This document shows, one piece after another, positions 9,308-59,900 of a stretch of 64,000 nucleotides of DNA (the stretch's first letter is position 1; the number at the start of each line of letters is the position of its first letter). Source of the DNA: Bugula neritina (Eukaryota; Animalia; Bryozoa); the NCBI GenBank assembly GCA_964035545.1, contig OZ037769.1, positions 9,508,129-9,572,128 on the forward strand, read 5' to 3'. The notes below the pieces were generated by a model that worked only from the letters and a program-made list of their open reading frames with translations, did no database searches and was not told the DNA's origin. A program made the translations under genes and the position numbers.

Positions 9308-11116
9308 TTAGCGTCTAGTTTGCCATCGGGTTCTGGTTGAACGTCTCGGATGGTCCCGGGTATATTCATCACCATCTGGTTGTCTAGGATTGCGTCTAGG
9401 TTGTGAGGGTACAGGATCTGGCTCTGGTGTTTCCTCTTGTTGTGCAGTATTTTCAGTGGTAACCATCAAATCATCAGGTGGCTCTGTATCTTCTGTACTG
9501 GAATGTCGTGGACAGAGTTGGTCAATGTGTCGTTTCCAAACTGGTCCTTTAGGTATGACTTTCACATTCACAGAGCGGCTCGCCAAAACTTTGATCACAA
9601 CTGCCTTGATCCACTTGGGTTGTCTGTCTCTTCTAGGCCCATAGTATAGAGCATAGCAAGGCGTTCCAACTGTGTAGCAGTGTAGTTTGTTGGTAGTCTT
9701 TTTCTGTTGCATCTGATGTCTTTGAGATAGGTGTGCTGGAGAGGGAAGTAGAACATCTATTTTGGCTCTGATCTGTCGTCCATTCAGTAGCTCACTTGGA
9801 GAAAATCCATAAGGCAATGGTGTTCTTCTGTATTGCATTAGGAACTCTTGGAGGGCCTCCCTGGGTGGAGGTGTAGACTTTCTCAGCGATTGCTTAAAGG
9901 ATTCTACTAGTCGTTCTGCTGCTCCATTGGTAGCGGGATGATAAGGTGCTCCTCTTAGGTTGACAATTCCTCGATCTTTACACCACTGTTGGAATTTTTC
10001 TGAAGTGAAACTGGGTCCATTATCTGTCACTATGGTATGAGGGTAACCAAAGTGAGCGAAGTCTGTCTCCAATAAGTTAGTTGTCATCTTGGTTGATATA
10101 GAGCTCGTAGGATGAATGCAAGGATACTTGGTGAATGCATCCACAAGCACTAGCCAATTTGTTCCCATAAAGTTGATTGCATGGTCTACGGGTAGTCTGC
10201 TCCATGGCTTTTCAGGCATCATCCAAGGGTGAACTGGTGACTTCTTTTCCTGGTTTTGGTGCTCTCCGCAGGTTGAGCATTGCTGTGACAATTCTGTAAT
10301 GTCGTTGTCTGATCTTGGCCAATAGACTGCTGTGCGGGCAAGTTGCTTCATACGTTGTCTGCCAAAGTGTCCCATATGTAGTATTTCTAACACTTGTTTC
10401 TGCAGGGATAAAGGTATGACAATCCTTGCTCCATAGAGTAGGCATCCGCTTTCAACTGTCAGTGAGGTTGCGATCTTCTTGAAGTCTTTAATGGTGTAGC
10501 CATCAGCGATTGTTTCTGACGATTCTTTGCTTTCTTCACCATCCATCCATCCTTCCATAGTGTATCGCATCACGGTGCTGAGTACTGGATCTTGGGCCGT
10601 CTCTTTCTTTAGAACTCCAGGATCTGTAGGTTTCAGCTGCTTTCCAATAGTCTTTATTGTGCAAACTGTGTCGATATCCACACCTTCTTCCTCCTTATCA
10701 AAGCCATCGTCTGATCCCATTGGTAGGCGACTCAGTATGTCTGCATTGCCGTGGTCTGATGTCTTTCTGTGTTCAATGGTGTACTTGTATTGGCTGAGAG
10801 TGAGTGCCCATCTAGCAAGTCTCTTGGCTGCCATAGCTGGTGTTGCTTTGTTGGGTCCAAAGATTGCCAGTAGTGGTCGGTGATCTGTAACCAATACAAA
10901 GCTTCTTCCATACAGAAACTGATGAAACTTGGTGATTCCAAATATGATTGAGAGTGCTTCCTTCTGTACTTGACTGTATCTTTGCTGAGTTTTTGTCAGA
11001 GTTTTGCTGGCATGGGCAATTGGTCGCTCTGTCCCGTCTTGGTAATGATGAAACAACACAACTCCAATTCCAACTTCTGATGCATCACAGGATATGCCAA
11101 TTTGTAGAGGGGTCAT
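9308..11116 (-). CDS. RNase H-integrase (3' part of pol, separated by a frameshift)
   Basis: RNase H CDAS...EAL...TDH; integrase HMGH...CSTC, VDH, TDNG, NGAAER. Confidence 0.92.
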   Translation of the reverse strand: MTPLQIGISCDASEVGIGVVLFHHYQDGTERPIAHASKTLTKTQQRYSQVQKEALSIIFGITKFHQFLYGRSFVLVTDHRPLLAIFGPNKATPAMAAKRLARWALTLSQYKYTIEHRKTSDHGNADILSRLPMGSDDGFDKEEEGVDIDTVCTIKTIGKQLKPTDPGVLKKETAQDPVLSTVMRYTMEGWMDGEESKESSETIADGYTIKDFKKIATSLTVESGCLLYGARIVIPLSLQKQVLEILHMGHFGRQRMKQLARTAVYWPRSDNDITELSQQCSTCGEHQNQEKKSPVHPWMMPEKPWSRLPVDHAINFMGTNWLVLVDAFTKYPCIHPTSSISTKMTTNLLETDFAHFGYPHTIVTDNGPSFTSEKFQQWCKDRGIVNLRGAPYHPATNGAAERLVESFKQSLRKSTPPPREALQEFLMQYRRTPLPYGFSPSELLNGRQIRAKIDVLLPSPAHLSQRHQMQQKKTTNKLHCYTVGTPCYALYYGPRRDRQPKWIKAVVIKVLASRSVNVKVIPKGPVWKRHIDQLCPRHSSTEDTEPPDDLMVTTENTAQQEETPEPDPVPSQPRRNPRQPDGDEYTRDHPRRSTRTRWQTRR

Positions 11117-13490
11117 AGTGTGCTAATACCAGATCACTGCTTAACATCTTCTTCAGTTGTAAAAATGATGTTTGCTGCGTAGTACCCCACTGCCATTGCT
11201 CTCCTTTCTGCAATAACTTTTGAAGTGGTGATGTGACCGTGGAAAGATCCGGCAAGAACTTGTGGTAGAACTGTACAGATCCTAGGAAGGATTTCAAGCT
11301 TCTAACATCAGTCGGGGCTGGCATCTTCTTCAAGGCTTCTACACCAGATCCTTTTTCTATACCTTTGTCAGAAAGCTTGTGTCCCAGGTATTCTACTGAC
11401 TGTTCTGCGAATACACATTTCTCCAGTTTGCGTCTTAATCCTCGGTCTTGCAGCCGTTGCAATAATCTTTGTAGATTTGTGATGTGATCTGTGGCTGTGG
11501 CTCCACTGACTAGAATGTCATCCAAATAGACTGCTACTCCGGGTAGATCACATGTGAGCTGCTCCATAATCTCCTGGAAATAACCGGGTGCTGAGCTGAT
11601 ACCAAAAGGTAAGCGCTTCTGTAGTAGAACACCACGATGAGTGCTGAGAGCCAACCTTCTTTGGCTTTCTGAAGCTAGAGGAATCTGATTGTATGCGTCT
11701 GCCAAGTCAATCTTCGAGAAACCATGTCCTCCTCCAAGTTTCCTCATCAGGTCTTCTGGTAAAGGAATTGGTTGACGATGATCCTCTAGTTGAGAGTTGA
11801 CTGAAACAGAGTAGTCTCCACATACACGTAGCTTTGGCTTTGGCTGTCCAGGTAGTTGTGCTTTGCGTATAGGAACTACTGGTGTGCCATAGGAATTGAA
11901 CTGCACTGGCTCCCATACTCCTTTAGCAATTCCAACATCATAGGCTTGAGTTAAGTCTTCTTGAATGGCGTAAGGTACAGGTCGGGGTTTGCAGAATACT
12001 GGCTTAGCATCTTTCTTGAATTTGACTTCTAATTCAAAATCTTTGAGGCATCCCAGTTCTGGTTTGAAGAGGCTGCTGAACTCCATTGTTAGTTTTTTAC
12101 AGGATTCCTTGAGATTGAGGTTGACATTATGAACATCTTTGCTGATGTCTTCTCCATCTGTAGGCTGCATCAAGGAATCCACAGAAACTCCCAATTGTTG
12201 AATTCCATCTCTGCCGAGTAGGTTTAGGTTGGGTATTCTGCTGATGACAAATTGAAGTTTCTTCTGCTGGTCTCCGAATTTGGTGAAGAGTTCACAGGTT
12301 CCCATGATGTCAATTGGATGATGCGTAGCTGATTCATAATGTATCTGTTGTGATTGAAGATTAGGTGATCCTAGTCTTTTCCAGTTCTCTAAAGACAAGA
12401 AGTTGTCTCCTGCTCCAGTGTCGACTTCTAATTGAAAAGATTGACGTTGAAGAGTTACATCTACTTGTAGTTGAGGAACTGTGTTCATAGTCTTTAAGGT
12501 CCTAATAACTTTGAGTGGTTTGCTGTCATTCATCTTCTTCTTTCGGCATACAATTTCAAGATGTTCAGTGAGTTTGCAGTAGTTGCATGTAGAACTTTTG
12601 TATCTGCATTCTGCTGGCTTGTGATTTGTCTTTCCACAGCGATAACAGGGTTTGTTGATCTGTGTTGGCTGGGTCGTTGGTGTAGAGCTTGGAGTCGTCT
12701 TCTTCTTCTTGCTGACTTTATGGAGAGCGTTGACCTCTCCGTGAACAGTTTCTTTAGCTACTTTAGCTGCTTCTTCAGTTTCCACAGCGATTTCAGTAGC
12801 TCTGTTGAAAGTGAGATCTTCGTCCTTGAGTTTAAAGATTGCCTTCAGTATAGCTTCATTTCCTACTGAGCATATAAATCTGGTACGAAGTGCTTCATCT
12901 TGTGGGTCAGTAATTGAAGAAAAGTCACAAGTTGTTGCGTCATGTCGAATCCTAGCTGCTAGTTCTGGAATAGTCTCCCCTGGCTTCCTTTTCATGTAGT
13001 GCCAAAATCTGTATCTTTCTCTGATGATGAATGTCCTTGGGTTATATTGTGTCATCATGTAGTTGTTAACTTCATCCATCGTCAGTTTGTTGATCTCCTT
13101 CTTTGGTGTCTGCTGCTCCGCCCAATCACTCAACTGCTTGTAGATGGCTGTTGATTGGTTTGTCAAAAATACTTGTGGTATTTTATCCTCTGCGATTGAG
13201 TTGGCTCCAATGAAGGTGGTGAATCTTGCTGAATATTGAGTCCATAGTTCTGTACTTGGATCAAATGCTGCAAAATTCGGGGTTGATGCTGGGGTTTTCT
13301 TCTCTGCTGACTGGGTGAGTAGTTGATGCAGCTCCCGATTTTCTGTTTGCTGCTGTTCCATCCTTGCTTCTTGCTCTTCCATCCTTGCTTCTTGCTGTTC
13401 CATCTGTTGCTTCTGCAAATCCATCTGTTCCTTTTGCTGTGCCAACTGCTGGGTTAGCAAAGCTATCAGTTGATCTGTAGGTGTAGACAT
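11085..13490 (-). CDS. Gag-protease-reverse transcriptase (5' part of gag-pol)
   Basis: Tandem zinc knuckles CYRCGKTNH...C and CNYC...H...C, protease VDTGA, RT motifs IDLADAY, LPFG and YLDD. Confidence 0.93.
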   Translation of the reverse strand: MSTPTDQLIALLTQQLAQQKEQMDLQKQQMEQQEARMEEQEARMEQQQTENRELHQLLTQSAEKKTPASTPNFAAFDPSTELWTQYSARFTTFIGANSIAEDKIPQVFLTNQSTAIYKQLSDWAEQQTPKKEINKLTMDEVNNYMMTQYNPRTFIIRERYRFWHYMKRKPGETIPELAARIRHDATTCDFSSITDPQDEALRTRFICSVGNEAILKAIFKLKDEDLTFNRATEIAVETEEAAKVAKETVHGEVNALHKVSKKKKTTPSSTPTTQPTQINKPCYRCGKTNHKPAECRYKSSTCNYCKLTEHLEIVCRKKKMNDSKPLKVIRTLKTMNTVPQLQVDVTLQRQSFQLEVDTGAGDNFLSLENWKRLGSPNLQSQQIHYESATHHPIDIMGTCELFTKFGDQQKKLQFVISRIPNLNLLGRDGIQQLGVSVDSLMQPTDGEDISKDVHNVNLNLKESCKKLTMEFSSLFKPELGCLKDFELEVKFKKDAKPVFCKPRPVPYAIQEDLTQAYDVGIAKGVWEPVQFNSYGTPVVPIRKAQLPGQPKPKLRVCGDYSVSVNSQLEDHRQPIPLPEDLMRKLGGGHGFSKIDLADAYNQIPLASESQRRLALSTHRGVLLQKRLPFGISSAPGYFQEIMEQLTCDLPGVAVYLDDILVSGATATDHITNLQRLLQRLQDRGLRRKLEKCVFAEQSVEYLGHKLSDKGIEKGSGVEALKKMPAPTDVRSLKSFLGSVQFYHKFLPDLSTVTSPLQKLLQKGEQWQWGTTQQTSFLQLKKMLSSDLVLAHYDPSTNWHIL

Positions 13491-24700: not shown

Positions 24701-27700
24701 GATATATAGTGTATACTAAATATTAGAGGTATATAGTGTATACTAAATACTAGAGATATATGTACCTTTACCTGTACCTGCACCTATCCCTTGGTCGGAC
24801 TGACCGTTGGGGTACCACTGTTGATCTTTGCAACCAGCCCTCTCCATCCCTTTCTGTTCTCTGTTCTCTTCAAGTTGTCGCTCAGTGTCTTTCCGGTCCA
24901 TTCTGTGATGTTGTCCTCCCATCTCTTTCTCTGCCTGCAGTTATGTACGGTTCCTTGTAGGATTGTCTTGACAAGTCCTGTGGATCTTTTGACATGCCCA
25001 TTATACCACTTCAGCTTCCGTCTCTTCACAGTAGTCAAAAGATCTTTGTGATGTCCCACTGTGTTTGTGACTCTGTTCCGTACCTCAACATTTGTGATGT
25101 GGTCTTTGTAGGAGATGCCTAGGAGCCTGCGGTAGCATCTCATTTTAGTTGCCTGTATTCTTCTCTCCAAATCTGTTGTCAGTGTCCATGACTCACAGGC
25201 GTACAGGAATATGGAGATGACCAGTGATCGCATCAGTCTGATCTTTGATCTGAACGTGATCTTTCTGTCATTCCAAACAGGCCTCAGTTTTGTCAGGGCG
25301 GCTGTTGTTTGCGCAATCCTGGAGAGAATTTCAGGCTTTGATCCTTCATCTGATACGACTGACCCAAGGTACTTGACAGTTCCAAGTTTCTCGCCATTGA
25401 CTTTGACGTCTGTGTTGATGCCGTCGGTATTGTTGGTCATCAGCTTGGTTTTCTCGGCACTGATCTCCATGCCGTACACTGCTGAGGTTGTATCCAATCG
25501 TTCTACAAGTTTGACGAGCTCTTGTTCTTCCCCTGCTAGTCCGTCAATGTCGTCTGCAAAACGCAAGTTGGTAATTGTTCTGCCTCCAATGCTGACTGTT
25601 CCATTGTGCTCTTCTAGTGCGTCAGTCATGGTTCTTTCCAAGAAGATGTTGAAGAGAATTGGAGAAAGCAAACAGCCTTGTCTGACCCCGACCGTCGTCC
25701 CGAACCAGTCCCCTATGCTTCTGTTCAGGTAAACTGCGCTGGAAGCCTTGTCATATAGTTGTTTTAATGTGTTGATCAGATTGGCGTTGATGTTATACAT
25801 CCTCATGGTTGCCCACAAAGCTGCATGCTAGACTCTGTCGAAGGCCTTCTTAAAGTCCACAAAGACATGGTAGGAGTTCTGTTGGTGTTGGAGGTACCTC
25901 TCGCACAGTATTCTGAGCTTGAAGATCTGTTTTGTTGTACTTCGCCCTGCTCTGAAACCTGCTCGTTCTTTCGTAATGATCTTCTCTGCTTGTGGTTTCA
26001 GTCTGTTCAGCAGGATCTTCAACATGACTTTACTGGGGTGGCTTATTAGGCTAATAGTGCGGTAATTCTGGCACACCTGTAGGTTGCCTTTCTTGGGGAG
26101 TGTGATCACCAGTGATTGTGTCCATAGTGTTGGCCATTTTCCTGTCTGCCAGATCTTGTTGCAGATGATTGTCAGGGCGTTGATCATGGTCTCTCCCCTT
26201 GCCTGCACTAGTTCTCCTGGTATATCATCCACTCCTGCTGACTTCCCTTTTTTCAGTGCTTTGATTGCTGCTTCAACTTTTTCTCCAAGGATGGGATGGT
26301 CATCGGTGTTGGTTGCTGGAGGGACGTTTAGTAGTTCTGGGTTTCCTGTGGCTTTAGCTTTGTACAGTTCTGAGCAGCACTCTGTCCATCGTTTTAAAAG
26401 AGATATATAGTGTGTACTAAATACTGGAGTTATTTAGTGTGCACTAAATTAAGTTACATTACATTTTTAATGATGATAAATAGGCAAATGGCTGCAGCCT
26501 TTACAAACAGCATATGTAGCTTGTTTTTAACAGCACTTAATTTCATTTTTCCTATGCATTTCCACTCAATTTTGTTTTAGATTTAAACATTTCTAATAAA
26601 CAGAGCATTTGTGGTTCTCCACCCCAAGCACCTCACACTCAGCGTGTTGACATCTACACAAAGATATTACCAGGAAATGTCATACAGCAGCAGTGTGCTG
26701 ATAATTCTATTCTTATTAGATCAAGGGTGTGCACATGTATGTCGTCAGGGAGATGGGACTCATCTTGTGGAACTAGTACTCTTTGTCAAAGTTAGTAATT
26801 CAAACTTTGTTTTCCTATATTTATATCATACTTCAATTTTTACATAGTTATACAACATACTATAAAGTGCTCTTTTGTTTAACATTGTTTTTACAGAGAT
26901 TACTACAACTCCAACAACAACTCCAACTACAACTCCAACAACAACTCCAACAACAACTCCAACTACAACTCCAACAACAACTCCAACAACAACTCCAATT
27001 ACAACTCCAACTACAACTCCAACTACAACTCTAACAACAACTCCAACAACAACTCCAACAACAACTTTAACAACAGCTCCAACAACAGTTACTACAGCAG
27101 CAGCTTCTACAATAATAAGAAATTATACCCATACAACTTCTACTCACACAGCAATGATTAATAACCAAACTACTAATGTTTCCATGGTTGCTTCCACCTC
27201 AGTTTCCAATGCTAGTGCTATGTCTTCCAGTACTTCAATTGCAGCCAGTAATTTTTATACAAATACAACTAGTTACAGTATAAAAACTACCCCAAGCAAC
27301 AGGATACTTGCCACCAACATTAAAGCAATTGATTTCAACAGTACGGCGAATGGCTTTAACAGCTTAACCTTAGATGCTAACCTTACAACAGTTAGTACAA
27401 ACAATGATAGTACAACAATTGTTGCTAACAGTGTCACAACTTATACTAATGGTGCAACAATTGGTGCTAGCAGTTGGGATTTCAACAGCACAGGGACCAG
27501 TGAAAGTAGTGTGATAGATAACACCACCAGTACAATTATTGACACTACTACTGCATCAATTTATTCTCTCAACATATCTGCTGATATTAACAGTTCAATG
27601 ACTAGCACCAGCAGATCAACATTTGTTACAAACAATGCAACAGGGAATACCAACAGCTCAACAATCAGTACAGAAAGTGGGATAACCAGTATTTCATTAT

Positions 27701-30700
27701 ATCTCACCAGGACACTGGTTAATGGCCAAACAACAGCGGACACCAGCAGTGCAACAGTTGATACCAACATTAGCATCTATACAGACATCATAAAGGGTGT
27801 TACTAGCCTACCACCAATTATCAATGAAAAAACAGATAACACTAGCGGTACAGCCACAGGCATTGGTTCTATTAATTCAACTATCCGTACAAATGCTATG
27901 TATAACATCAGTGTAACTGATGCCAACATTGCAAGAATTGATAACCGTTTGTCAATTGATATCAACAACACAAAAACAATTATGGATTCCACTAGTACAA
28001 GCAGTATAATAAGTGATAGCCCTAATACAGCAAGTAAGACCAACAGTACAGCAGCTTCGTTTAATGTTGGAAGTTGTTACAAACCAAAAGTTCCAGAATT
28101 TGCTAAGATAACACCTGATCGTGAAATTTACTCTTTGAATTCCACAATTATATACAGTTGCATAGATGGGTACGTGTTGGGTAAAGGGAATATCAGCCGT
28201 AATTGTGTGAATCAAGGAGCATGGACTGGAGTGTCGCCTCTTTGCTTACGTGAGTTATGGTACAGATTATTTGTATATTTTGAATAGTTATGTTTTAGGT
28301 TATTCAATAGTCACAATATTTTTCATGCAAAGTAATAAAATAAAATGACAATTGGCTTCTAGTAGTTATCAAATAAACTCACAGCAGAACAGGGTTAAAC
28401 AATGCTGGCCAAATTTATGACATATTAAGCATGAAATGTTTACTTGGCCAATAATAATGTCTTCTATAATTTTATCATGCATTAATATAATATATTATAT
28501 TTATTTTTATGTTTAGTTTCTAAATTGAATCGTTTGACAATTGTAGTTTTCATTCAAAAGGTAAAGTAAATTTCACTTGAATTTGGTATAACTTCAGCTC
28601 GAAGATTATTTTTAAGATTAAGTTTTAAGATAATAACACAAACTTTATTTTGCAAGTTTTAGTGTAGTGAAATTATATGCTTACTATCAAAAGTTTTTCT
28701 ATACTTATGAATGATATTCAATCACAAAATCAACTAAATTGATTTAACTAGAAACACAATGATTTTAAATAGCTGAAAGCTAGTCATTGGTTCTGTTTGA
28801 AAATTTTAACCAGAACTTTAACCAAATTAACTGTAAGAAGCGTAGCTAATATATTTGGTCACGCCTCTGACAGTTGATTTTTGTTAAATTCCTGGTTATT
28901 CAGTATGCAGTAGCATTCATCAACTGACTTATCGTTTATTCTTGTGCAAGCAGCATTTTCACGTGGAATACGTTTTCTAATGGTTTACTTAGTATTTGTA
29001 ATACACTGTGTGTAAGCTTAACATAATATTAGAGTTATTGCTAATTTCAATTGATGGAATACTGATAATAGCTGACAGGCTTCTCATTGTTTTATTATTA
29101 TTAATTTCCATCAATTACAGCCTCGTGTTGATGTATAGTCTTTATTTGTGCAGACGTCTTAAACCTGCATACATGTAGTTACAAGCTACCTGAAATTTAT
29201 CTTGAGTGAATATGATGAAAAAAATGTAAATCTCATAATTCAGTTTAATATTGGTCCTAATATCTAGACAGTGATAAAACAGAATCAGCATGTTAACCAA
29301 AGTTTAGTTTATCAATTAGGCTGCAATACCTATGCTGGAATATTATATTCAGTTTAATTTTGCTCAGTTCTAATATAAAGCTAAAATAAATTATAGGGCT
29401 ATTATTTTATTTATTTTTAAAGCATATTAACATAGTACATACATACATCCGTGCAACTATATTCAGTATGCATACGTGCCGGCACACATTAACAGACAGA
29501 TGCAACAGCACATAGATTTTTTTTGTACAATATGTACAAATAAGCATAGTAACAATACTGCAATGGTAAGTGTGCTCACATTTGTAAATTACTTATAACG
29601 ATGAATGATTTACACTTAATATTTTTAGCTGCTTCAACTTCACAGCTATGTTCAGGAGTTCTGATGGATAATGGGCAATGTCTGACACTAAACAAACATG
29701 TCAGTATATGGAAGGATGCGAAATATAGATGCGAAAATAACTCCAGGCTAGCATTTCTTGAAGGTATAATTTAAAATCGTCATTGAACCTTACGGTCTGA
29801 TATATCTGGTTGATCACCACCACCTTAAGCTAAATATTATGTATAGTATGTATAGTATGTATAGTATGTATGTATGTATACTGTATAGTATGCATTGTAT
29901 GTGTTGTATGTATAGTATGTATACTATGTATTGTATGTATAGTATGTATTGTATGTTAAGTATATATTGTATGTATAGTATGTATTGTATGTATAGTATG
30001 TATAGTATGTATAGTCATAGTAGATGACCAAAGTGAACCATTTGAATAAACTAGATGTTATAATATAAATGTGATTGTAACTGTTCTTTTGCTGACCAGC
30101 TTTGGAATGAACTAGACGAGTTTTGGTTTACATTGCTACGATGTAAAATTTGTATATTTCTATATAAAGTAATTGGCAAATTGTGTTTTGATTGTGAACA
30201 AAAATAATCAGAAATGAAGCCAATCAATTTTTGGAAAAATAATAATTAAATAGCAGTCGAAAACTTGATCTAATACTTTTGAAGGATAAAAACTATATTT
30301 TATGGTCCTTTGGCTTCAGCTCTTAGTCTACATTAACTCAAATCAAGTTTCATTTATGCACCCTTAGAATCTGCAGTGACTTTTAGATTTATAAGTGCAA
30401 GAGCTACATTTAGCACTTGGTGGTTTAAATTTGAACTGTATTTGTGTTATTTAAATACATGTAGGCTACTTGTTATTTGATGTTGAATAATCAGTAGACC
30501 TATATAATGATAGTATTTCAAATTACTTTGTATTATTCGATAATTCTATTTCTTATTTAGAAAATTTCTGCTACTATATGAATTAATATTACTAGAGCTA
30601 ATCTTATATGTTAGCAAATAATTTAAAATAAATTAACAGTAATATAACTGCTTGGTCAAGTATCTACGTACAACAAAAATTTTGTTCCAAAAGAAACATA

Positions 30701-33700
30701 CTTTCAGATACGCTTGAAGCTTCAATCTTAGATTAGCCTATTTGGTAATCTGAACCAATGATGATAGAATTAAAATATGTTTTTAAATATCTCTAAATTA
30801 TTTTTGTGCATTAAGACAGTTGTTAACTTGTTGAGAAATTATAGTAAATTATGAAAAATAAAAAAGCGATTATATCATCTCTTTGATTAGATGCTAGTAA
30901 CTTCTATACAACCAATTATTTTAATTTAACACATATAAATAATGCGTTTGATTCCTCAACTCATTAACAATCTAATTGCAGATTAAAAACTGCGTTTTGT
31001 ATTTCTTAATTCAATGGTTCAACAGGATGTTAAGGTTTTACTTACAATTTTTTTTGGTGACATCGCACTAAAAAGTAGTGCTGGAGTGTTATTTGGAAAA
31101 TGTTTTGTTATAGATAGTCTGGTATTAAATGCTTCAGAACATCTACTAACTTACAATAATGTTACCGCAGCGTGGACTGGTGGTCATAGTGCTCAGAAAT
31201 GGAAATGGACTGGTATGCACAGTTTTTATTGGCTTTATATTATTTTCATTTATTATTTAAAATTTAAAGTCTTAGCCTCTAATTTAGTTGCATACCATTT
31301 AAGTTTGATTGTTGTAAGAATATAATAATTTACCTGAGGTTCATATGTGTTGCTAAATTTTCAAAGAAGCTTCTATGCAGCTGCGGTTGGGGTTTTTACA
31401 TTTTTATTTGAAGTGCAGCAGCAAGACCTATACTTTGAATACATCAAGATAAAGTTAAGACAATCTCTTTTTATTAGTGTACTTAGAAGGTTGCAAATAG
31501 TTTTTTTTGTGAAGGTTGCAGCTGTCATTCTTTGCACACCATTTTTAAGCTTCTTTGAAACTTTAAAGCATATTTATTGTATGTTGTTTGATATTAAGCT
31601 CTATTGATTGCATTATTTGACTTCAGATTATGTGTTTCCAGATATCTAATTAATTAATTTCAATTAAAACAGATGATTCAGAAATCACAGATTTTTTTTG
31701 GGCATCTAATTCCGCTCTGAACTTTGGCAGAAATAAGCATTACATTCAATTGAGTAAGGAAGATGCCTATAAATGGAGAGCTTCACCTGGTTCTCATGTG
31801 TATGATGTTTCTGATGGCTGGTCTGTAAACAAGTATATCTGTCAGTGTGAGTAAATCAGCAAGCCATCTATAATTCATCTATAATGCAAGGATAGCACAG
31901 GCTAAACAAATCAATATTAGTTTGATATTGCTTTTTCCCAGTTCTTGAACTATTATTTAGTACCAAATTTGCCCACTAGATGTTTATTAAAGTAAGATTT
32001 TACACCTAGACAGTATAAGCTTGCAATTTAGAAAGAAAGTCTCATGTTGGATCCTTTAAAAAAACATCTAATAGTAGTAACACATGTAGAACTTTGTATC
32101 CCTTAATTCTTGCTCTCACATGTGCCTCAAATATATTATACGGACTTAGGCCTTAGCTAATTTCTAGCTTTTGACATATTATCAAGTTGTTTGTTGAGGT
32201 ATTCATTCTTATTGTCTAATTTGTGATAATCTTGATTGGATTTTCAGTTTGAAACCAATGGACTAGTTAGCATTTACTCCTTAACTAATCTGGGTTTAAA
32301 GTTGCTAATGTGGAGGGAGCCTGGTGATGAGTATAATATGATTACATCTGCTGTAACATTGTACTCAGTTTAATTGGTTCTCACACTATGAGTGTATACA
32401 TACACAAGTGAAATCACACATGCATATTGTATGGGGGTCATTCCGTGTGAAATCAACCAAATTTCAGAAAGTCCCACGCTTTTGCGTCTTAGATTTTGTT
32501 CATATTTACACCAAATGGACCTACACATGTCCTGGGTACTATTCTTGAATATTTCTGACCTGACACAAAACCTTTTGAGGAATGACTACTTCCGTGAACA
32601 AAGGTTGGGAAAAATTTTGAGGAAAATTTGTGATTTTTACTTTTAGACCAATTTATAAACACCCATATCTCAATCATTTTTTAGCCTGAGCCTTAAAATT
32701 TGCTGTGTGATTTGATAACACTTATCAATTTGCACTAGTAGCAACACATACTACAGAATTCTTTGTGTGCATATATGCTAAGCCATTGACTATTGACAAA
32801 TTTTTGTAAATTTTGAAAAAAATTGAATATTCGGCACATCATAAAAGGCGTATAAATGTTTATCCATAAATAGGTGAATATGGTGACTTTATACTTCTCA
32901 ATTTGAGTAATTTTGAAAATTATATTTTCCGAGATATAGACGCCCAAAGGGAAGAAAATGTGAAAATTCGCCCGACTTCACAAGGATGTAACCTGATGTT
33001 TGAATACAGTAAAATCTTTCAAACAAACATTTTCTGTAAGGCCGTTTAGTTTATTTTCTAGATTCATAAGTTTGAACGTCCTTATATTGTCCAAACTTAA
33101 TGTAAATTGCATGAAAAAATGGTATGCGTATGAAAATCAACAAAATGCAATTTTTCAATATAATATGTTGGGATCATACATTTTTTATTATTCACATTAG
33201 TAGTAGAGGGTGGATGGTCCTGGGACAACCCTTCCCCCGTCGAGTCTTCGACTCTCCGGTGTCAGGGATTGTCCCAGGACGCATCCACCCTCTACTACTC
33301 TATTATAATTTTTATTAATTTTTTAGTATTAATTTTAAAAAAATGTATTAATTTTTCTCTCGTTGAGTTTTTGGTGTCAAGGATTGTCTCAGGATGCATC
33401 TATCTATTACTTTATTAGTTTTTATTAAGTTTTAGAAATTATACGTTTTAGGACAGTTTTATTGAGTTTATTGTCCTAGAATTGTACGTTTTAGGACAGT
33501 TTATTACCGTTAATTTAGAATGAAAAAAATATTTTATAGAGTTTTGTTTTAGAAATTGTATGTTTTAGGACAAATATTAACTTTTATTTTAGAATGTATT
33601 TACTCGTTACTATTAGTAATAGAAATAAATTATTATATGCTAAGAATATAATAATTTATTATTAATAGCGTTTAAACGTTATAACTTGAAAATGTTGGTA

Positions 33701-36700
33701 AAGATTCGGTAGATTCGATTATATTTCCATCACTCGTTGATAATATTAATTTATTACCCGTTGCGTCTTGTAATTTAGGAATAGCGTAATTATTTATATT
33801 ATTAGTTGTAATAATATTTGAAATATTTATACCCGTTTCTATAATATTACCATCACTCGAAAGCATTAATAATTTACCTCCAATTATTGGTTGTATTTTA
33901 TTTATAGCAAAATTATTTATATTACTAGTTGTAATAATATCGCTAACGCTTAAACTACTATCCGCAACATTACCCGAAGTAGTTGAAACGGTTAATTTTT
34001 CATTCGCGGGTTGTATTTTATTTATAGCGAAATTATTTATATTACTAGTCGTAATAATATCGCTAACGCTTAAATTACTATCTATAATATTACCCGTATT
34101 AGTTGATACGGTTAATTTTTCAGTTGGCTCTTGTATAAGAGGTATTGCATAATTAGATACATTAGTTTTTGTAACGACGTCATCAACTTTTAAATTACTA
34201 TCTATAATGCGTCCATCATCAGTTGATATAGTTAATTGATTAATGGGATTTTGTATAAGAGGTACTGCGTAATTAGATACATTAGTTTTTGTAACGACAT
34301 CATCAACTTTTAAATTACTATCTATAACGCGTCCGTCGTCGGTTGATATAGTTAATTGGTTAATAGGGTTCTGTATTTTAGGCATACTCGTATCATCAAC
34401 GTATTTTTTTGTAGCCACGTCTTGATCGTCAGCAGGATCAATAACTCTAGATATTTTATTTTCCCCCATATCTAGCGTACCCGTAAGAGTACTACTACCG
34501 TTTATTAAAACGAATCTTTTCGTATTTATTTCCGTTTTTCCGCTTCCTCCGAATTTATAAACACTCATTTATTACGGTATATAAAATTCGTCTAACCCGT
34601 GTCTATACCTCCCATTATTTTTTGAGGAAGAAAGATCTAAAGTAATAAAGCCGTGAGGTTTTTGCCATCCTTTATAACAAAAGTTTTTAAATTCGTTTAA
34701 CGTTAAATCTCCGTTTATGTGATCTTGATATATATGATTTAAATTTTTTCCATCTTGAGGAAATAAGCAAATAAAATTAGCGTTTTCCCGAATAGTGTTT
34801 CTAGGTAGCTTAAAATAATTTTGCGACAAATAAAAACAATCAACGTTATTGTGTCGTCCTCTTACGTAATAACTTTCGCAAGTTTTTTGTTTTTCCAACA
34901 TTAAATCATCGAATATTATTAAATTTTTATTACTAGCGTCTAATTCGCTAGGATCATAAACGTCGTCACTAGATTCTATAAATTCGGCGTCTATATTACC
35001 GTTACCCCTACTATTTTTTAAAACACGAGTTACGTTTATACCCGCATTTATTATCGCGTCACTATTTTTAAAAAAATTTAAAATTTCTTCTTTAGTTAAT
35101 TTACGTTCGAAAGCCTTCCTCATATTTATATATTCGGGTTGAGAAAGGCTTTTACCGTAAATCATAAGTTTATCGTAATCGAGCCAATTAGGTTGTAATA
35201 GTAAGTTACAAAGTAAAGTAGTTTTACCGCATCCAGACTTTCCAACGATAAGACCTCTTATGCTTTTAGGAAGTAAAGGATTATTATTACGATTAATTTC
35301 GTTTTTCCACGAAAGATTTTCTATTTCCATTTATTATAATAAATGTATTGTTGTAAGTGTAAAATTAAAACGAAAACTCTTAATTATGAAAAAAGAGTAA
35401 GTAAAAATAATAGACTAATGGGTTACGGTAATTGCGGTCAATGCGGATGTAAAAAGACTACATTCGTTGGGTCGGGTTTAGCTAATAATTTAATAAATAA
35501 TTTACCTTTCGAATTGCATTATCCAGGTCATAATTTTTTAGGACCGGGTACTAAATTAAATAAGCGTTTAAATGACGACACGACTCCTAAAGAATGGAGT
35601 AAACCGGTAGATCGAGACGACGCTATAGCCATGAGACACGACGTATGTTACGCGCTTAATAAAGATACTAAAACTAGAAACGAAATATGCGATAAAAATA
35701 TGCTAGACGAATTAAAAGCTATACCTAATCCTACGCCCTCTGAACAGCGACACAGTCGTTTTGCCTCGGCAATAATAGGAGCGAAAAAGCGTTTAGGATG
35801 GGGATGGACGAACGAGTTAGCCGAAGAATTACATAAACCCGTACAAAAAAAATTTCGTAAAAGACGAGTTTGGGTATCGGGTATTGATAATATTTGGGCG
35901 GCTGATTTGGTTGATATGACTGAATTCGCTAAATTTAATAACGGTTATAAATATTTACTAACGGTAATAGACGTATTTTCAAAATACGGTTGGATAATAC
36001 TTTTAAAAAATAAGACCGGAAAAGCGACGGCTTTAGCTTTAAAAACAATTTTAACTCGTCGTAAGCCACAACATTTATGGGTTGATAAGGGAAAAGAGTT
36101 TTATAATAAAGACGTAAAGTCCTTAATAAACTTATATTCTACGGAAAATGAAGAAAAGTCTAGCGTAGTAGAAAGGTGGAATAGAACTATGAAAGAGCGA
36201 ATGTTTAAATATTTTTCAGCGAATAATACTTATAAATATATAGACGTACTAAAAGATTTAGTAAAACGGTATAACGAGACTAAACATTCGTCTATTGGAA
36301 TGACACCGATTGAAGCTAGTGACCCTTCTAATGAAAATAAAGTACGCGTAAAATTATATCCAAACTTACCAGCGCCTTCTAAACCTAAATTTGCTATAGG
36401 TGATAGAGTACGTATACCGCGTAAGAAACGAACGTTTGAAAAAGGTTATACCGTTAGATGGACGGAGGAAGTGTTTACTATAAGTAAAATATTATATACT
36501 AATCCGACTACTTATAAATTAACTGACTCGGGCGGGGAAGAAATTCAAGGATCTTTTTACGAACGGGAATTACAAAAGACGAGTCAAGAAATGTATAGAA
36601 TAGAGCGCGTAATTAAAAAGAAAGGTAAAAAGGCTTTAGTAAAATGGTTGGGTTATCCCGATTCTCAAAACTCTTGGGTAAATTTAAACGTTTTAGAACA

Positions 36701-39700
36701 ATTATAGTGGACACAAATGTAGACACTAGACACAAAAGTGGACACAAATGTAGACACTAGACACAAAAGTGGACACAAATGTAGACACTAGACACAAAAG
36801 TGGACACAAACACATTTGTGTCCATAAAAAGTGGACACAAATTAATATATAATAAATGAGTTACTTAAAGATTTACGACCCTATAAAAAGAGATAAAACC
36901 GTACAAGATTTTATTTCTCAAAAGAATAAATTAAAAGAAAATTTTAAACGAGAACGTGAGCGAGAATTAAATGCCGCGATGGCTCAAGAAAAATATTTTG
37001 AACCCGTAACGACTTCGCAAGCTCAAACGACTGACGCGTTAAAACAATTGCTTACATTACCCAATTATAATGTTCAACCGGCTATAACGGATGGAGTTAT
37101 AAATTTAGACGAATTTACGCAAAACGCTTTAGCTGGCTTAGAACCCGGCGCTTATAACGTAAAGTGGGATGGTAATAGACACGTTATTGGTATAAAACCT
37201 ATAAGCTTTAATGATGGTAAAATAATTTTTGAAAACAAAGAATATCCGGCGACTAGAGGACTTTTAAGTCTTTTAACGCGTAAAACGCCTATAGGATACG
37301 ATGATAATGATTTAGCGAATTACGCTAATATACTCGATAATAGCGGCGCTATATATCAAAGTAAACACGGTCCTATAGATAAAAATAGTGACAAGTGGAG
37401 ACGTATCGTTAGACCTATTTGGGAACAATTATATCCTCAAAGAGCGAAACTCGCTGATAGTAAAAAAGCTAAAAGGCAAGTCGGTGATGGAGTAGTATAT
37501 TTATCGTCTGATCCTAACGCTTTAATAGAACGACTCGAACTTTTAATTTCTAGCGCTAAAGCCGGAAATACGGGAGTGCGAAACGAAATTGTGTCTATAT
37601 TAGACGAATTACTTAGAATGAAAATTATTACTCATGATTATTATAAAAGTATTCTCGTATAATAAATGTACGTTTATGATAAAAGACAACGATTACAAAG
37701 ACACTACGCCGGTGGTGGAATAATTGATACCATTAGGAATGTAGTAACTAAAATAGCTAGTAATTCCAGCGTAAGAGAATTAGGTAAAAAGGCTATAGCT
37801 AAAGCGGGTACCGCGGCCGGTGAAAAAATTGTTAACGCGATTAAGAAAAGAAGACAAAAAAAGTTAAACGCTAAAAGTCAAGCTATATTACAAAAACTTA
37901 GTTTAGCTAAAGATAATAGTAATATAAGTAATATTTTAGAAGGAAGCGGACAAGCTATAGCTTATTAAGAAATTATTTTTACTATAATAAATGGACTCTC
38001 TAAATATTACGCAAAAAATTGTACTCGATACGAGCGTAGAGCGCGATCAGGTACACGAATACGAACCCGTAACGGGAACGAATTTAAATTACCCCGGTGA
38101 AATTAGAATAGTTATTAATCAACAAGATTTGTACGTTCAGCCGAGTAAAAGTTATTTGATTATCGAAGGACGTTTAACAAAAAATGATGGAACCGCTTAC
38201 GCCGACGCCGACTTAGTAACGTTAATTAATAACGGTATGGCTTATTTGTTTAAAAGTATTAGATATCAACTCGACGGACACGACTTGGAATATATAAATA
38301 ATCCCGGACACGCTTCGACTATGATGGGTTTACTAACTTATCCCGACGACTACGGCAAGTCGAGAGGTCTTAATCAGTTGTGGTCAAAAGATACTACCGC
38401 AGCCGCTGCCGCCGCTAATTTAGGTTTTAACGCGCGTCAAATTTATATTATACAAAAGCCTGACCCTAAAGGTACTTTTAGTATTAAAGTGGATCTCAGA
38501 CATTTGTTCGGGTTCGCTGACGATTATGAAAAAGTATTATACGGTATAAAACATCAATTAACGCTAGTACGCGATACCAACGATAACGCTATATTTAGAG
38601 CAAACGGTGTAGACGCGGGAAAAATAACGTTAGATAAAGTGTCGTGGTGGATGCCTCACGTAACGCCTAGTTTTGAAATGAAGCATAAACTCTATAAAAT
38701 TATAGAGAGTAAGGCGCAACTACCCCTAATTTATAGATCTAGATGGTGTGATAGTATCGCGGTGCCGCAAACTACTAATTTTACGTGGCGTTTGGGTTCT
38801 AGAGGAGATACGGAAAAACCTAAATATATTATCGTAGGTTTTCAAACGAATAAGACTGAAAGTCAAACGGCTAATCCGGCAGTATTTGATCACGTTAACG
38901 TTAAAAGTATATACGCGATGCTAAATAGTGAGCGGTATCCCGAAGTTGATTACGATATAGATTTTGCTAAAATGAAGTTTAGTAGAGTGTACGGAGACGC
39001 TTCTAAATTTTGTGGAGAATATTACGGTATAAACGAGCTAATCGCTTATTCAAACGTATTACCTTCGGAATATAAAGATCTTTACGCTTTGTTCGTAATA
39101 GACGTTAGTAAGCAAAGCGAAGCTCTTAAAAGTAGCGTAGCCGATATTCAATTGAGAGTTCAGTTTAGTCAAAACGTGCCGGCTGATACTCAGGCGTACG
39201 CGTTAATTCTATCGGATAAAACTATGTCTCTCGGTTCCGATGGAAATAATTTAAAAGTTATATAAATGGAAAATAAATTATTAAGAGAAATTGCCGATAA
39301 TACGGCCTCTAAACAAACGATGACTATAGGAGTTACCGATACTAAAACGAGAATAATTACTCAACTTAATCCGCCTATAGAGTTAAATAAAAATAAAAAA
39401 TACGAAATGTGTCTTATTAGTTTAGATACGTTTTATTCTTTTCCAAACATTAGTACCGATAGAAATTCCTATAGATGGTCTAAAGACGGTGGTACTACGT
39501 GGCATTTAGTTTCGTTACCAGTCGGAGTGTACGAATTAGATCAACTAGAAGAAGCTATTCAAGACGAAATAGTAAAAGAGGGGGGTAATAGAAACGGTAT
39601 TACTTTGCAAGCTAATAAAGTAACTTTTAGAATTATACTTAAATTAAAACCTAATTACCAAATAGATTTTAACGTTGAAAATTCTTTAAGAGACGTTTTA

Positions 39701-56946: not shown

Positions 56947-59900
56947 TGTACCTCACTTTTGTATTTAACTTAAACTGCTAAGTTATCTTTTGCAAAATGC
57001 ATGAAATTAACTGCACAGCATACGACATCTTTTCTTTTAACAAACTAGAAGTAAATAATTCAACTTTCTCTCTTCTTAACTTTAATATTCAAAGCATTAG
57101 AAATAAATTTTCACATTTTGAATATTTTTTGAACACTTTTTCTAACCCCTTTGATGTAATTTGTTTAACTGAAACTTGGCTAAATGATGATGAAATTCAA
57201 TTTTTTAAACTTGAAGGTTATGATTTTGTAGGTAGTCAGAGACTGGGTAGAGGAGGTGGTGTTGGGGCCTATGTGCGGTGTGGCCTGGGGGCCGACACGA
57301 AGGCTGTTTCGCTGTCTGGAGCAGACGTCCTCTCACTTGTTCTACACAGTCAGGCCTCAAAGTCTTCCCATTTCAGACTCACAATTATATACAGGCAGCC
57401 CGGTGCTTCCTCCACTGATGCGTTTCTTAGTGACCTGGAGGCTTATATTTCCCATGATTCTTCTCCCCATATTGTAGTAGGTGACATCAATATAGATACC
57501 CTTGACATGAATGTAAGTGACACTTATTCCACCACTATTTCTACCTATGCCTTTTACAATGCTATCACTCTCCCAACTAGAATCTCATCGTCACGAGCTA
57601 GCTGTTTAGATCATATCCTTCTAAACTTCTCTTGCATAAACGGTAAATCTGGAACCATTGAGTCAGATTTGAGTGACCACCTACCCACTTTTGTGACGTT
57701 TCAACTGAATTGTTCAAATAGAACTAATATTGTCTCAGATGATATGTATAGAACTATTAATTATTCCAAACTAGTTTCCAAGATAAACTCATTTTGCTGG
57801 TTGAAGCTCTTTGATGACTCACAAAATTGTGAAGTAAACTATGATATATTTATTACTAGACTAAAATTTCTCATTGAAAGTTGTTCACAGACTATTGAAA
57901 ACAATAGGCCTTCTAAAAAGTTTGCACAAAAACCATGGATTACTGAACATCTTTTAACTCAAATCAAAAAGAAATATGCACTTCACAAACGAGTGAAAAA
58001 AGCACCCCTGAATAAAAAGATTTTAAAAAGATATAATGCTTTTAGAAATAATTTGAATGCTGATCTGAGAACCGCTAAATATGATTATTTTAAAGCTTTT
58101 ATTAGCAATTGTAACAGTTCGCAGCTTTGGGTACTTATAAATGAACAAACAGGGAAAGCCAAACTAAACAAAAGATGCTTTTCATCAAAACTGTATTCGG
58201 TTGAGGACTCTGAAACCATGCTAGATAGCAATATGGATATAGCTAACAATTTCAATCTGTATTTTTCAACAATAGCCCAAAAACTAGCTTCAAATTTTAC
58301 AAATTCGAACTCCGATACCTACTCAATGCTGACAAATATTACTAAAGAAGAATTTCATTTAAAAAAAACTGATGAATCTCAAATAATTGAGATCATTGAA
58401 AAACTAGATTCCAAGAAAGCTATAGGTTTAGACAATATCCCGACTAAACTTATCAAATTTTGCAAAATTTCACTATCTACACCACTTGCCTATTTATTTA
58501 ACAAAAGCATAGAAGAAAAAATTGTTCCAGCGCAAATTAAAACTGCTAAAATATTACCATTCTACAAAAAAGGTTCTCATGACAGATGTGAAAACTACCG
58601 CCCTATTTCAATCCTCCCCATTTTTAGTAAAATACTTGAAAAAATTGTTAACAATCAAATTTTAAACTTTTTAGAATCTAAAAATTTGATTTCTAAGAAT
58701 CAATATGGCTTTCGAAAAAATTTAAGTACTGCAGATGCTGTTGTTAAATTTAAAAATAATACGCTCGAAGCTTTTAACAATGGAAATTGCGTTCTCGGAA
58801 TTTTTATAGATTTTAGTAAGGCTTTTGACACTATAAATCACAATATTTTACTTGCAAAAATGAGAAAACTTGGTTTTAGTGAATCCACAGTGTCATGGGT
58901 TGCTAACTACCTATCAAACCGAAGTCATTCCACACTAGTAAATGCAACCTTATCAAGTTCACGATCAGTGACCTGTGGGGTTCCCCAGGGATCTGTCTTG
59001 GGCCCTACCTTATTTTTGATATATATAAACGATCTTGCTCAACAATTTAAACTTTTTAATCCCATTTTCTATGCCGACGACACTAATTTATTTTTTGAAT
59101 CAAAAGATTTGAACTCCCATTTGGAAGCTATAAATCAAGATCTAAACTCTCTGTCAATTTGGTGCAATAAAAACAAACTCACTATAAACTATGAAAAATG
59201 CAACTATATTGTTTTAAAAAACTACCAAAATCCTTTTCAAATTCTAGAAAACTGTATATTATTAAATAAAAGACCTATAAATTACTCTAACAGCATAACT
59301 TTTCTAGGTGTACAAATAGATAAAAATTTAAATTGGAGCTTGCACATCTCAAACCTACTTACAAAATTACGACCACTTAGTGGATTAATATACCGATGTT
59401 CTGAATATCTCCCTCAAAAAATTTTACTTTTGATATATAATTCTTTCATCAATTCCAAGTTAAATTATTGTGCAGAGGCCTGGGGAAATGCAGCTAATAC
59501 CCATCTAAACAAGATTTTTATTTTTCAAAAAAAGGTAATGCGTATCATGAACAAAAAACCGTTTGACCATCCATCAGCGCCTCTATTTACTAAGCATAAA
59601 GTTCTCTCAATATACCAGATTTACCGTTTTAAAGTGTTAAAGAAAGCTCATTCTTTTTTCTACTCTGACAATTTTTTTCCCACTCACTCTATCAATACAC
59701 GTCAATCATTCATAAATCTCCCCCTTCCTCACTCTCAAACAGCAGCAGGTCACAGAAGAAACTGTTATCAGGAGGTGGCACTATGGAATGAACTGCCAAT
59801 CCCTTTACGGTCAATTAGCAACCCTAATGAATTTGGGAGGAAGTTGAGGCTTTATCTGTTAGAATAGTTGTATTTTTTTGTATTTTTCTGGATAGAGTCG

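What the first reader, a model, noticed from the sequence alone, without database searches (positions are those of the whole stretch)
35343..36707. Integrase fused in frame to a parvovirus-type phospholipase A2 and a Zn ribbon
Seen: one ORF carries a CxxC..CxxC ribbon, then PLA2 with an intact calcium loop (NFLGPG) and catalytic HD (RHDVCY), then the DDE integrase and chromodomain. Domain junctions carry Gly motifs (FVGSG, RLGWG) resembling the GxG sites in the core proteins. Known: the parvoviral VP1u PLA2 mediates endosomal escape, and adintoviruses encode related PLA2 proteins. Inference: a virion-packaged polyprotein coupling membrane penetration with integrase delivery, released by the element's protease. 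I cannot tell how common this fusion is.
Basis: partly seen in the sequence, partly recalled or inferred. Interest (0 to 1): 0.8.

Follow-up and report, generated by a model that had tools for sequence, protein, structure and literature searches.

The report
Gag-pol-style phospholipase-integrase join in Polintons
A virus-like jumping element (Polinton) encodes a predicted membrane-cutting enzyme and its DNA-inserting enzyme in one reading frame, whereas most of its relatives examined carry the same two parts in offset frames at a run of A's, which likely works like the retroviral gag-pol frameshift and would load a little integrase into virus particles.

Summary
Observation confirmed. 35343-36707 is one 454-aa ORF: Zn ribbon (DUF5679), parvovirus-type PLA2, DDE integrase, chromodomain. 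It lies in a 14.2-kb Polinton with 145-nt TIRs and a 6-bp TSD. Sister copies in the host show no listed indel at the join. The fusion itself is on record: a preprint supplement labels 'PLA2-Integrase' twice, and this scan noted it on another genome (e1-9115377). The new point is in the relatives. Of 38 intact related loci, 21 have the integrase in the -1 frame, 7 in +1 and 10 in frame. All 28 shifted loci have an A-run at the join, 26 lack an AUG before the first catalytic Asp, and 54 of 56 neighbouring genes are unbroken. High-copy families are mostly -1. The window's family nests among -1 relatives and lacks the A-run. Best reading: a gag-pol-like recoded core precursor, here turned into a constitutive fusion. 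No stimulatory hairpin was found; recoding, packaging, cleavage and PLA2 activity are untested. I found no report of the frameshift.

The parts
35343..36707 (+). 454-aa ORF: Zn ribbon - PLA2 - integrase - chromodomain, in one frame; starts in a TAAATG context
35346..35465 (+). DUF5679 zinc ribbon (C3, C6, C31, C34)
   Evidence: Pfam PF18930, E 2.3e-6; motifs
35463..35477 (+). FVGSG, candidate protease site 1 (Zn ribbon | PLA2)
   Evidence: relaxed match to the adenain-type pattern; a Gly pair sits here in 112 of 116 short homologs scored; cleavage untested
35478..35804 (+). parvovirus-type PLA2 domain: Ca loop 64-69, H99-D100, Y103, D117, ending in RLGWG
   Evidence: PF08398 E 1.4e-8; conservation; fold matches to entomopoxvirus PLA2 and densovirus VP1
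35790..35807 (+). PLA2-integrase join (RLGWG-W): no A-run and no linker, GGATGG twice in tandem; relatives carry an A-rich linker of 15-79 nt here
35805..36587 (+). retrovirus-like DDE integrase (D188, D248, E277); first in-frame AUG after the join is M192, behind D188
36606..36692 (+). chromodomain
   Evidence: PF00385 E 2.6e-5, just under cut-off; HP1/CBX matches
33199..33343 (.). left terminal inverted repeat, begins AGTAGT; preceded by TSD CACATT (33193-33198)
47248..47392 (.). right terminal inverted repeat, ends ACTACT; followed by TSD CACATT (47393-47398); 143 of 145 nt match the left one
34572..35330 (-). A32-type packaging ATPase, head to head with the fusion gene
   Evidence: PF04665 E 2.3e-8; same arrangement in many loci
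36856..37662 (+). conserved 268-aa gene (PZ-like; label recalled)
   Evidence: homologs in many related loci
37666..37968 (+). 100-aa small core-like protein with YAGGG and LEGSG motifs (cupiennin-like label recalled)
37991..39265 (+). double jelly-roll major capsid protein
   Evidence: PF21738 E 7e-57
39266..40024 (+). probable minor capsid protein (penton); label by position and recall
   Evidence: no Pfam hit above cut-off; homologs in related loci
40037..40606 (+). 189-aa core-like precursor with four strict adenain-type sites and the pX-like GGFL motif (PW-like; label recalled)
   Evidence: motif compared by eye with PLA2X sequences printed
41994..45649 (+). B-family DNA polymerase gene, in this copy split into two overlapping ORFs (41994-42713 and 42638-45649)
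   Evidence: one frame in L001 and L002; Endonuclease VII hit
45646..46047 (+). adenain-like cysteine protease
   Evidence: Peptidase_C5 E 0.0037; adenovirus proteinase 1avp E 0.012

Best explanation
This Polinton encodes Zn ribbon, PLA2 and integrase in one frame, having likely lost the A-rich linker at which most relatives likely shift frame (-1) to make a minor PLA2-integrase product; the precursor is likely packed into the particle and predicted to be cut by the element's protease, so that PLA2 would open the endosomal membrane and integrase would arrive with the genome. Shown: the in-frame ORF with intact catalytic residues; its place in a TIR- and TSD-bounded Polinton; the offset frames, A-run and missing AUG in relatives; the nesting of this family among -1 relatives. 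Inferred: recoding (about 0.8), packaging of integrase through the fusion (about 0.65), protease release at site 1 (about 0.7) and at or near the join (about 0.5), PLA2 activity in entry (from parvovirus VP1 as cited in PMC8502044). In the shifted elements the logic would be that of gag-pol: much core protein, little integrase. In this family both would be made one to one.
For: Loci: of 81 fetched, 79 had a scorable join, 77 after dropping two duplicates, 38 intact in both domains: 21 at -1, 7 at +1, 10 in frame; all 28 shifted have an A-run of 6 or more in the linker, 8 of the 10 in-frame have none. At 90% integrase identity the intact loci form 35 clusters: 18 only -1, 2 mixed -1/+1, 4 only +1, 1 mixed 0/+1, 1 in frame with A-run, 9 in frame without (41 loci, duplicates and L044 included). 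26 of 28 shifted loci have no Met in the integrase frame before the first catalytic Asp. Control: in those 28 loci 54 of 56 well-covered neighbouring genes are unbroken although they hold 42 A-runs of 6 or more. 16 of 21 -1 loci have an in-phase X_XXY_YYZ heptamer with both frames open. Protein tails: of 120 short homologs, 67 end in the off-frame signature of -1, 12 of +1, 6 read on, 33 unclear, 2 truncated. Of 132 listed members of 10 clusters: 76 -1, 9 +1, 5 in frame, 26 unclear, 16 without the motif; in the 2359-member cluster 13 of 14 listed members are -1. The window sits in a 14-row clade (SH-aLRT 98) with 7 -1 rows, 4 unclear and 3 in frame (quick tree). Host sister copies keep the frame; 25 of 33 listed differences tested are synonymous. 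The element has a protease and two small proteins with strict adenain-type sites.
Against: No 3' stimulatory structure: 0 of 21 -1 loci reach z below -2, mean z 0.13 (pseudoknots not modelled). 5 of 21 -1 loci lack a strict usable heptamer (one has a second shift, one an N, three a first-position mismatch). 7 intact loci are +1, and near-identical copies differ in A-run length, so the run is also a mutation or assembly hotspot. Tail calls rest on my own motif rules, not on DNA. RLGWG does not meet the strict protease pattern. The helix after site 1 is not strongly amphipathic (rank 112 of 444 windows). A divergent clade of 8 loci is in frame without an A-run, so the state at the root is unresolved. 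This copy's polymerase gene is split. PMC12220804-type protist elements were not examined. No virion is known for Mavericks (stated in 10.64898/2026.06.19.733378).
Confidence: 0.6

Rival explanations
1. The recoding is real but is not classical -1 ribosomal frameshifting: polymerase slippage during transcription, or ribosome sliding on AAA-AAA codons, restores the integrase frame and would also tolerate +1 copies. This changes the step, not the gag-pol-like outcome.
For: No downstream hairpin; A-run present in 28 of 28 shifted loci while strict heptamers are in 16 of 21; 7 intact +1 loci; ribosome sliding on iterated AAA codons is described (PMC4363877, search listing and abstract start only).
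Against: Runs of only 6 A in L045, L046, L050 and L086 are all in the A_AAA_AAN phase; runs that short are poor slippage templates for RNA polymerases (recalled); -1 outnumbers +1 three to one or more in every data set.
Confidence: 0.3
2. Only the in-frame fusion works; shifted copies are decayed or mis-assembled at a homopolymer hotspot.
For: A-run length varies among near-identical copies; 21 of 77 loci are also broken inside the integrase; in-frame families without an A-run exist.
Against: 28 of 30 intact loci with an A-run are shifted, only 2 in frame; neighbouring genes 54 of 56 unbroken; -1 is the mode inside high-copy families, which should mirror the active master copy; the state recurs across 20 clusters at 90% identity and in a transcript-assembly record printed.
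Confidence: 0.1
3. The fusion is made but has nothing to do with packaging integrase for entry: it stays uncut or acts inside the cell, for example PLA2 at the nuclear envelope or in exit.
For: Join motif off the strict protease pattern; P0109 joins the Zn ribbon straight to the integrase with no PLA2; no particle has been seen for these elements.
Against: Catalytic residues of both enzymes are conserved together; PLA2 is a virion-module gene in adintoviruses (PMC8502044 section 8); a Gly pair precedes PLA2 in 112 of 116 homologs; adenovirus protease cuts a non-consensus site QRGF|G (PMC4246237).
Confidence: 0.15
4. In the shifted relatives PLA2 and integrase are independent genes, the integrase having its own promoter and a non-AUG start or a spliced leader.
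For: They are annotated as two genes in PMC11071296 supplement 2; 2 of 28 shifted loci have a Met upstream of the first Asp.
Against: 26 of 28 have none; linkers are 15-79 nt, mostly too short for an intron; the annotated integrases start behind the first catalytic Asp; 14 ORFs of the window element start at TAAATG, and none lies at the join.
Confidence: 0.08

Closest known systems
'PLA2-Integrase' of Adinto15303 and Adinto6405 (PMC11071296, supplement file 2)
   Same: PLA2 in frame with a Polinton rve integrase, same GxG-...-ELH join.
   Different: A label in a sequence file, not discussed in the passages or section 16 that I read. Those two proteins lack the fused Zn ribbon (a separate ORF in Adinto15303). 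Shifted relatives in the same file are annotated as two genes; 'frameshift' and 'slippage' occur 0 times in the text held (file cut at 4 million characters).
PLA2X of Alpha adintoviruses (PMC8502044) and CAP of Sf Mavericks (PMC5803895)
   Same: Parvovirus-type PLA2 with Ca loop and HD, preceded by a Gly pair and ending in a GxG motif; part of a Polinton.
   Different: PLA2X ends in a pX-like domain and is separate from the integrase. Here the PLA2 is followed by integrase and the pX-like motif lies in the 189-aa ORF.
Retroviral and LTR-retrotransposon Gag-Pol (recalled)
   Same: Structural precursor first, integrase behind it, joined by a frame change or in frame depending on lineage, with a protease encoded by the element.
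   Different: DNA element with a jelly-roll capsid; the upstream part is a core protein with PLA2, not the capsid; cysteine protease in trans; no stimulatory structure found.
Parvovirus VP1-unique PLA2
   Same: Catalytic and Ca-binding motifs, PF08398, fold matches to densovirus VP1.
   Different: In parvoviruses it extends the capsid protein; here it extends an integrase.
Predicted -1 sites in adintovirus Penton and Hexon-Adenain (PMC11071296 section 16)
   Same: Idea of -1 frameshifting in adintoviruses.
   Different: Other genes; prediction by KnotInFrame only; the integrase join is not mentioned there.

Membership tests
Polinton/Maverick (adintovirus) | Terminal inverted repeats with (AGT)2...(ACT)2 ends and 6-bp TSD | tested here: met
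   143 of 145 nt, CACATT on both sides; feature as stated in PMC8097293
Polinton/Maverick (adintovirus) | rve integrase with C-terminal chromodomain | tested here: met
Polinton/Maverick (adintovirus) | Packaging ATPase, adenain-like protease, double jelly-roll major capsid | tested here: met
   PF04665, PF21738 above cut-off; protease weak but consistent in two searches
Polinton/Maverick (adintovirus) | Protein-primed B-family polymerase | tested here: inconclusive
   No DNA_pol_B_2 or PDB hit; Endonuclease VII hit as in Sf Maverick PolB; 52% identity to the 1320-aa ORF of L001; polymerase motifs recognised from recall; frame split in this copy
Polinton/Maverick (adintovirus) | Minor capsid (penton) | tested here: inconclusive
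   252-aa conserved gene without a family hit; not folded
Alpha or Beta adintovirus class | Clustering of PolB and Hexon with the Mayetiola or Terrapene references | not tested
   reference sequences were not fetched
Parvovirus-type PLA2 (PF08398) | Profile score, Ca loop GxG, HDxxY and downstream Asp | tested here: met
Parvovirus-type PLA2 (PF08398) | Ca-dependent phospholipase activity | not testable with these tools
   needs an assay
PLA2X | C-terminal pX-like domain in the same protein | tested here: not met
   integrase follows instead; GGFL motif is in 40037-40606 (compared by eye)
Adenain substrate | (M/I/L)xGG-x or (M/I/L)xGx-G (pattern recalled; example IVGL|G) at site 1 | tested here: inconclusive
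   FVGSG matches only with Phe allowed at P4; Gly pair in 112 of 116 homologs
Adenain substrate | Same pattern at the PLA2-integrase join | tested here: not met
   RLGWG has Arg at P4
Programmed -1 ribosomal frameshift (relatives, not the window copy) | In-phase slippery heptamer in an open overlap | tested here: met
   16 of 21 -1 loci; absent at the window's join
Programmed -1 ribosomal frameshift (relatives, not the window copy) | Conserved frame offset across divergent lineages with no own start for the downstream frame | tested here: met
Programmed -1 ribosomal frameshift (relatives, not the window copy) | 3' stimulatory RNA structure | tested here: not met
   0 of 21 with z below -2; pseudoknots not modelled
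Programmed -1 ribosomal frameshift (relatives, not the window copy) | Trans-frame protein made | not testable with these tools
   needs reporter, proteomics or ribosome profiling

The most novel reading that the evidence does not exclude
A broad clade of animal Polintons has evolved its own gag-pol: a Zn-ribbon-PLA2 core precursor joined to the integrase by a -1 shift on a bare A-rich slippery site, which sets how much integrase enters the virion. Several lineages, the window's among them, have switched to a constitutive fusion. Many annotated Polinton integrases of this clade are then truncated calls that miss their first catalytic Asp.
Probability: 0.55. Interest if true: 0.8.

Novelty: new variant of a known kind. 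Interest (0 to 1): 0.66.

Why it matters
Whether Polintons make infectious particles, and how an incoming DNA genome would be integrated, is open. A link between a membrane-entry core protein and the integrase offers a concrete route, the same one that retroviruses use, reached independently by a DNA element. It gives direct tests: a trans-frame peptide, cleavage sites, integrase in particles. It also warns that protein databases overstate the in-frame form and that integrases of this clade are being annotated without their N-terminus. The in-frame fusion alone is a modest finding, as it is already labelled in a supplement.

Tried and rejected
No whole genome is held for this window, so copies in the same assembly could not be counted. 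No RNA holder is listed among sequencing runs; nothing is concluded on expression. A finer look at minor junction variants in host runs gave no answer, so whether rare host subfamilies keep a linker stays open. First junction scripts were unreliable: one search mixed frames in decayed copies and picked an off-frame motif for some loci, the window included; both were replaced by the profile-based. RNA hairpin behind the A-run: none. AlphaFold model of the whole protein is weak in the integrase core (mean pLDDT 61, pTM 0.30) and the single-sequence model of residues 1-155 failed (pLDDT 38); fold matches are used only for domain identity, not for domain contacts. PDB sequence search with residues 1-155 found nothing. 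ESM Atlas hits for residues 1-60 scored under 0.9, leads only. A pattern scan of viral contigs was malformed and not repeated. IMG/VR gave only 2 loci; genome contigs gave 6, probably mis-binned contigs: of three scorable, two -1 and one +1. The careful integrase tree did not finish; both trees are quick searches. Splicing at the join was rejected on linker length. The polymerase split as a conserved recoding site was rejected: one frame in L001 and L002. No complex prediction was run, as no binding claim is made. Motif searches in the PMC8502044 supplement found none of three family motifs (file cut).
Full report
Observation. The stretch is one 454-aa ORF on the + strand. Pfam finds DUF5679 at 2-41, Phospholip_A2_4 at 57-125, rve at 190-263 and Chromo at 422-450, the last just under its cut-off. 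The PLA2 residues H99, D100, Y103 and D117 and the integrase residues D188, D248 and E277 are conserved in 109 to 119 of the 120 listed hits. A model of the protein is confident only in parts, but it matches integrases, an entomopoxvirus PLA2 and densovirus VP1.

Setting. The gene lies in an element at 33199-47392 with 145-nt inverted repeats (143 matching), AGTAGT...ACTACT ends and a CACATT target duplication. It also encodes an A32 ATPase, a double jelly-roll capsid protein, an adenain-like protease and a polymerase gene that is split into two overlapping ORFs in this copy. This is a young Polinton/Maverick. The flanks hold LTR and non-LTR retroelements and a Sushi-domain exon, which points to an animal host. 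No whole genome is held. Contigs from four runs of two studies, laid at 80% likeness (1267, 464, 444 and 158 records), list no indel at 5% share or more in the ORF before 36598. Of 37 substitution rows shown inside the ORF I tested 33 (dropping one block of four adjacent ones); 25 are synonymous; 263 further rows were not shown. So the in-frame state is that of the host's family, not of this copy alone. Three bridging pieces have gaps at places not shown, so rare variants are not excluded.

How common. A protein search gave 4244 hits; 105 of the 120 listed carry both PLA2 and rve, including records named for a sea spider. That suggests a routine fusion, but the search sees only long ORFs. DNA tells otherwise. 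In L001, a 15.6-kb IMG/VR contig with all other genes in single frames, Zn ribbon-PLA2 and integrase are two overlapping ORFs. I scored the join in all 81 loci with profiles of the PLA2 end and the integrase start. 79 were scorable, 77 after removing two duplicates, and 38 were intact in both domains. Of these, 21 have the integrase in the -1 frame, 7 in +1 and 10 in frame. All 28 shifted loci have a run of 6 to 10 A in the linker; 8 of the 10 in-frame loci have none. These loci were the 80 best-scoring of 575, a choice that should favour in-frame copies.

Is the shift damage? In the 28 shifted loci, 54 of 56 well-covered neighbouring genes are unbroken, though they contain 42 A-runs of 6 or more; the intact integrase bodies hold 52 more, in frame by selection. 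At 90% identity the intact loci fall into 35 clusters, 20 of which contain a -1 member. Standalone Zn ribbon-PLA2 proteins end in tails that are off-frame readings of the integrase start. Of 120 listed, 67 carry the -1 signature, 12 the +1, 6 read on, 33 are unclear and 2 truncated. Among 132 listed members of ten clusters the counts are 76, 9 and 5, with 26 unclear and 16 lacking the motif. In the 2359-member cluster 13 of 14 listed members are -1. The in-frame clusters are far smaller (300, 365, 134 members) and, in the members listed, many are fragments. Copies multiply from active masters, so the modal state should be the working one. Against this: the A-run varies in length among near-identical copies, 21 of 77 loci are broken elsewhere in the integrase, the big clusters seem to come from few assemblies, and the tail rules are mine.

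How the integrase would be made. In 26 of 28 shifted loci there is no Met in the integrase frame before the first catalytic Asp. Linkers are 15-79 nt. A full enzyme therefore most likely needs a frame change at the A-run. An in-phase slippery heptamer with both frames open is present in 16 of 21 -1 loci, such as A_AAA_AAC, A_AAA_AAG and T_TTA_AAA. No hairpin follows: 0 of 21 reach z below -2. So classical -1 frameshifting is favoured by phase but lacks its usual stimulator; transcriptional slippage or ribosome sliding on A-runs (PMC4363877, listing only) remain open.

The window's lineage. Its join reads GGA TGG GGA TGG, with no linker and no A-run. In a quick tree of the Zn ribbon-PLA2 part it lies in a 14-row clade (support 98) with seven -1 rows, four unclear and three in frame; its sister P0355 (82%) also lacks the Lys linker. 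Loss of the linker in this family is the simplest reading. Other in-frame families without an A-run exist: L004 within the -1 clade, L020, L071, and a divergent clade of 8 loci that mostly lacks the Zn ribbon. The root state is not resolved.

Processing. Two small proteins of the element carry five strict adenain-type sites (pattern recalled). FVGSG fits if Phe is allowed, and a Gly pair stands here in 112 of 116 homologs. RLGWG does not fit, and the same motif ends standalone PLA2 proteins and the PLA2 domain of PLA2X. Adenovirus protease does cut a non-consensus site (PMC4246237, passages), so cleavage there is possible but unproven. A strict match, LMGYG at 25-29, lies inside the Zn ribbon and is probably chance.

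What is known. PMC8502044 (passages, sections 7 and 8, supplement term searches) describes PLA2X and the chromodomain integrase as separate genes; 'fused' and 'fusion' occur 0 times in its main text. PMC5803895 (passages) has CAP and INT separate. PMC11071296 (passages, section 16, supplement searches) predicts -1 sites for Penton and Hexon-Adenain only. Its supplement 2 labels two proteins PLA2-Integrase, and lists shifted relatives as a capsid or PLA2X protein plus an integrase that starts behind the first Asp. Three of its zip files could not be read and four were cut. Passages of PMC3671162, PMC11131425, PMC8097293, PMC11296320 and 10.64898/2026.06.19.733378 show no such join. Searches for a Polinton integrase frameshift and for the fusion found no report; the library lacks most subscription journals and Repbase. 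This scan noted the fusion on another genome (e1-9115377) and introns in such a gene (e1-8577721, e1-8577730); none of the notes shown mentions a shift at this join.

Verdict. The in-frame fusion is a known label and the minority state of a clade whose typical arrangement looks like gag-pol. That arrangement is well supported as sequence, unproven as mechanism, and not found in print. Novelty: new variant of a known kind. Interest 0.66.

Noticed in passing
window 41994-45649: The polymerase gene is split into two overlapping ORFs in this copy; it is one frame in L001 and L002. Mutation or assembly error; not resolved.
   Followed up: partly
window 33672-47081: 14 of the 15 element ORFs checked start at TAAATG, most behind a TATA-like stretch. 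It resembles the poxvirus late promoter (recalled) but may be a TATA box plus AT-rich start context; relatives are looser.
   Followed up: partly
window 32567-33198 and 48927-49575: The Polinton sits inside another element with about 630-nt inverted arms (91% alike); a 305-nt-arm hairpin element lies at 47605-48373.
   Followed up: no
window 36706-36841: 31-bp tandem repeat right behind the integrase stop, variable among host copies.
   Followed up: no
window 33672-34568 (-): 298-aa ORF with four 40-aa repeats; its N-terminus has homologs in L022, L032, L080, L081; possibly a fibre.
   Followed up: no
window 46048-47081: Two tandem paralogous ORFs (170 and 174 aa) of no known family next to the right TIR.
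   Followed up: no
P0109, P0264, P0290 (protein collection): The Zn ribbon moves: fused straight to integrase without PLA2 (P0109), on both sides of PLA2 (P0264), or behind it (P0290).
   Followed up: partly
L020:330-1700 and P0119: An in-frame PLA2-integrase whose Zn ribbon is replaced by the first 35 residues of the packaging ATPase and whose chromodomain is missing; 5 cluster members.
   Followed up: no
L069: Tandem copies of an ATPase fragment, PLA2, integrase and protease block within 6 kb.
   Followed up: no
window 9308-13490 (-), 24784-25806 (-), 56997-59867 (+), 27154-28287 (+): An LTR retrotransposon pol in two ORFs, an RT fragment, an intact 956-aa LINE ORF and a Ser/Thr-rich Sushi-domain exon of the host.
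   Followed up: no
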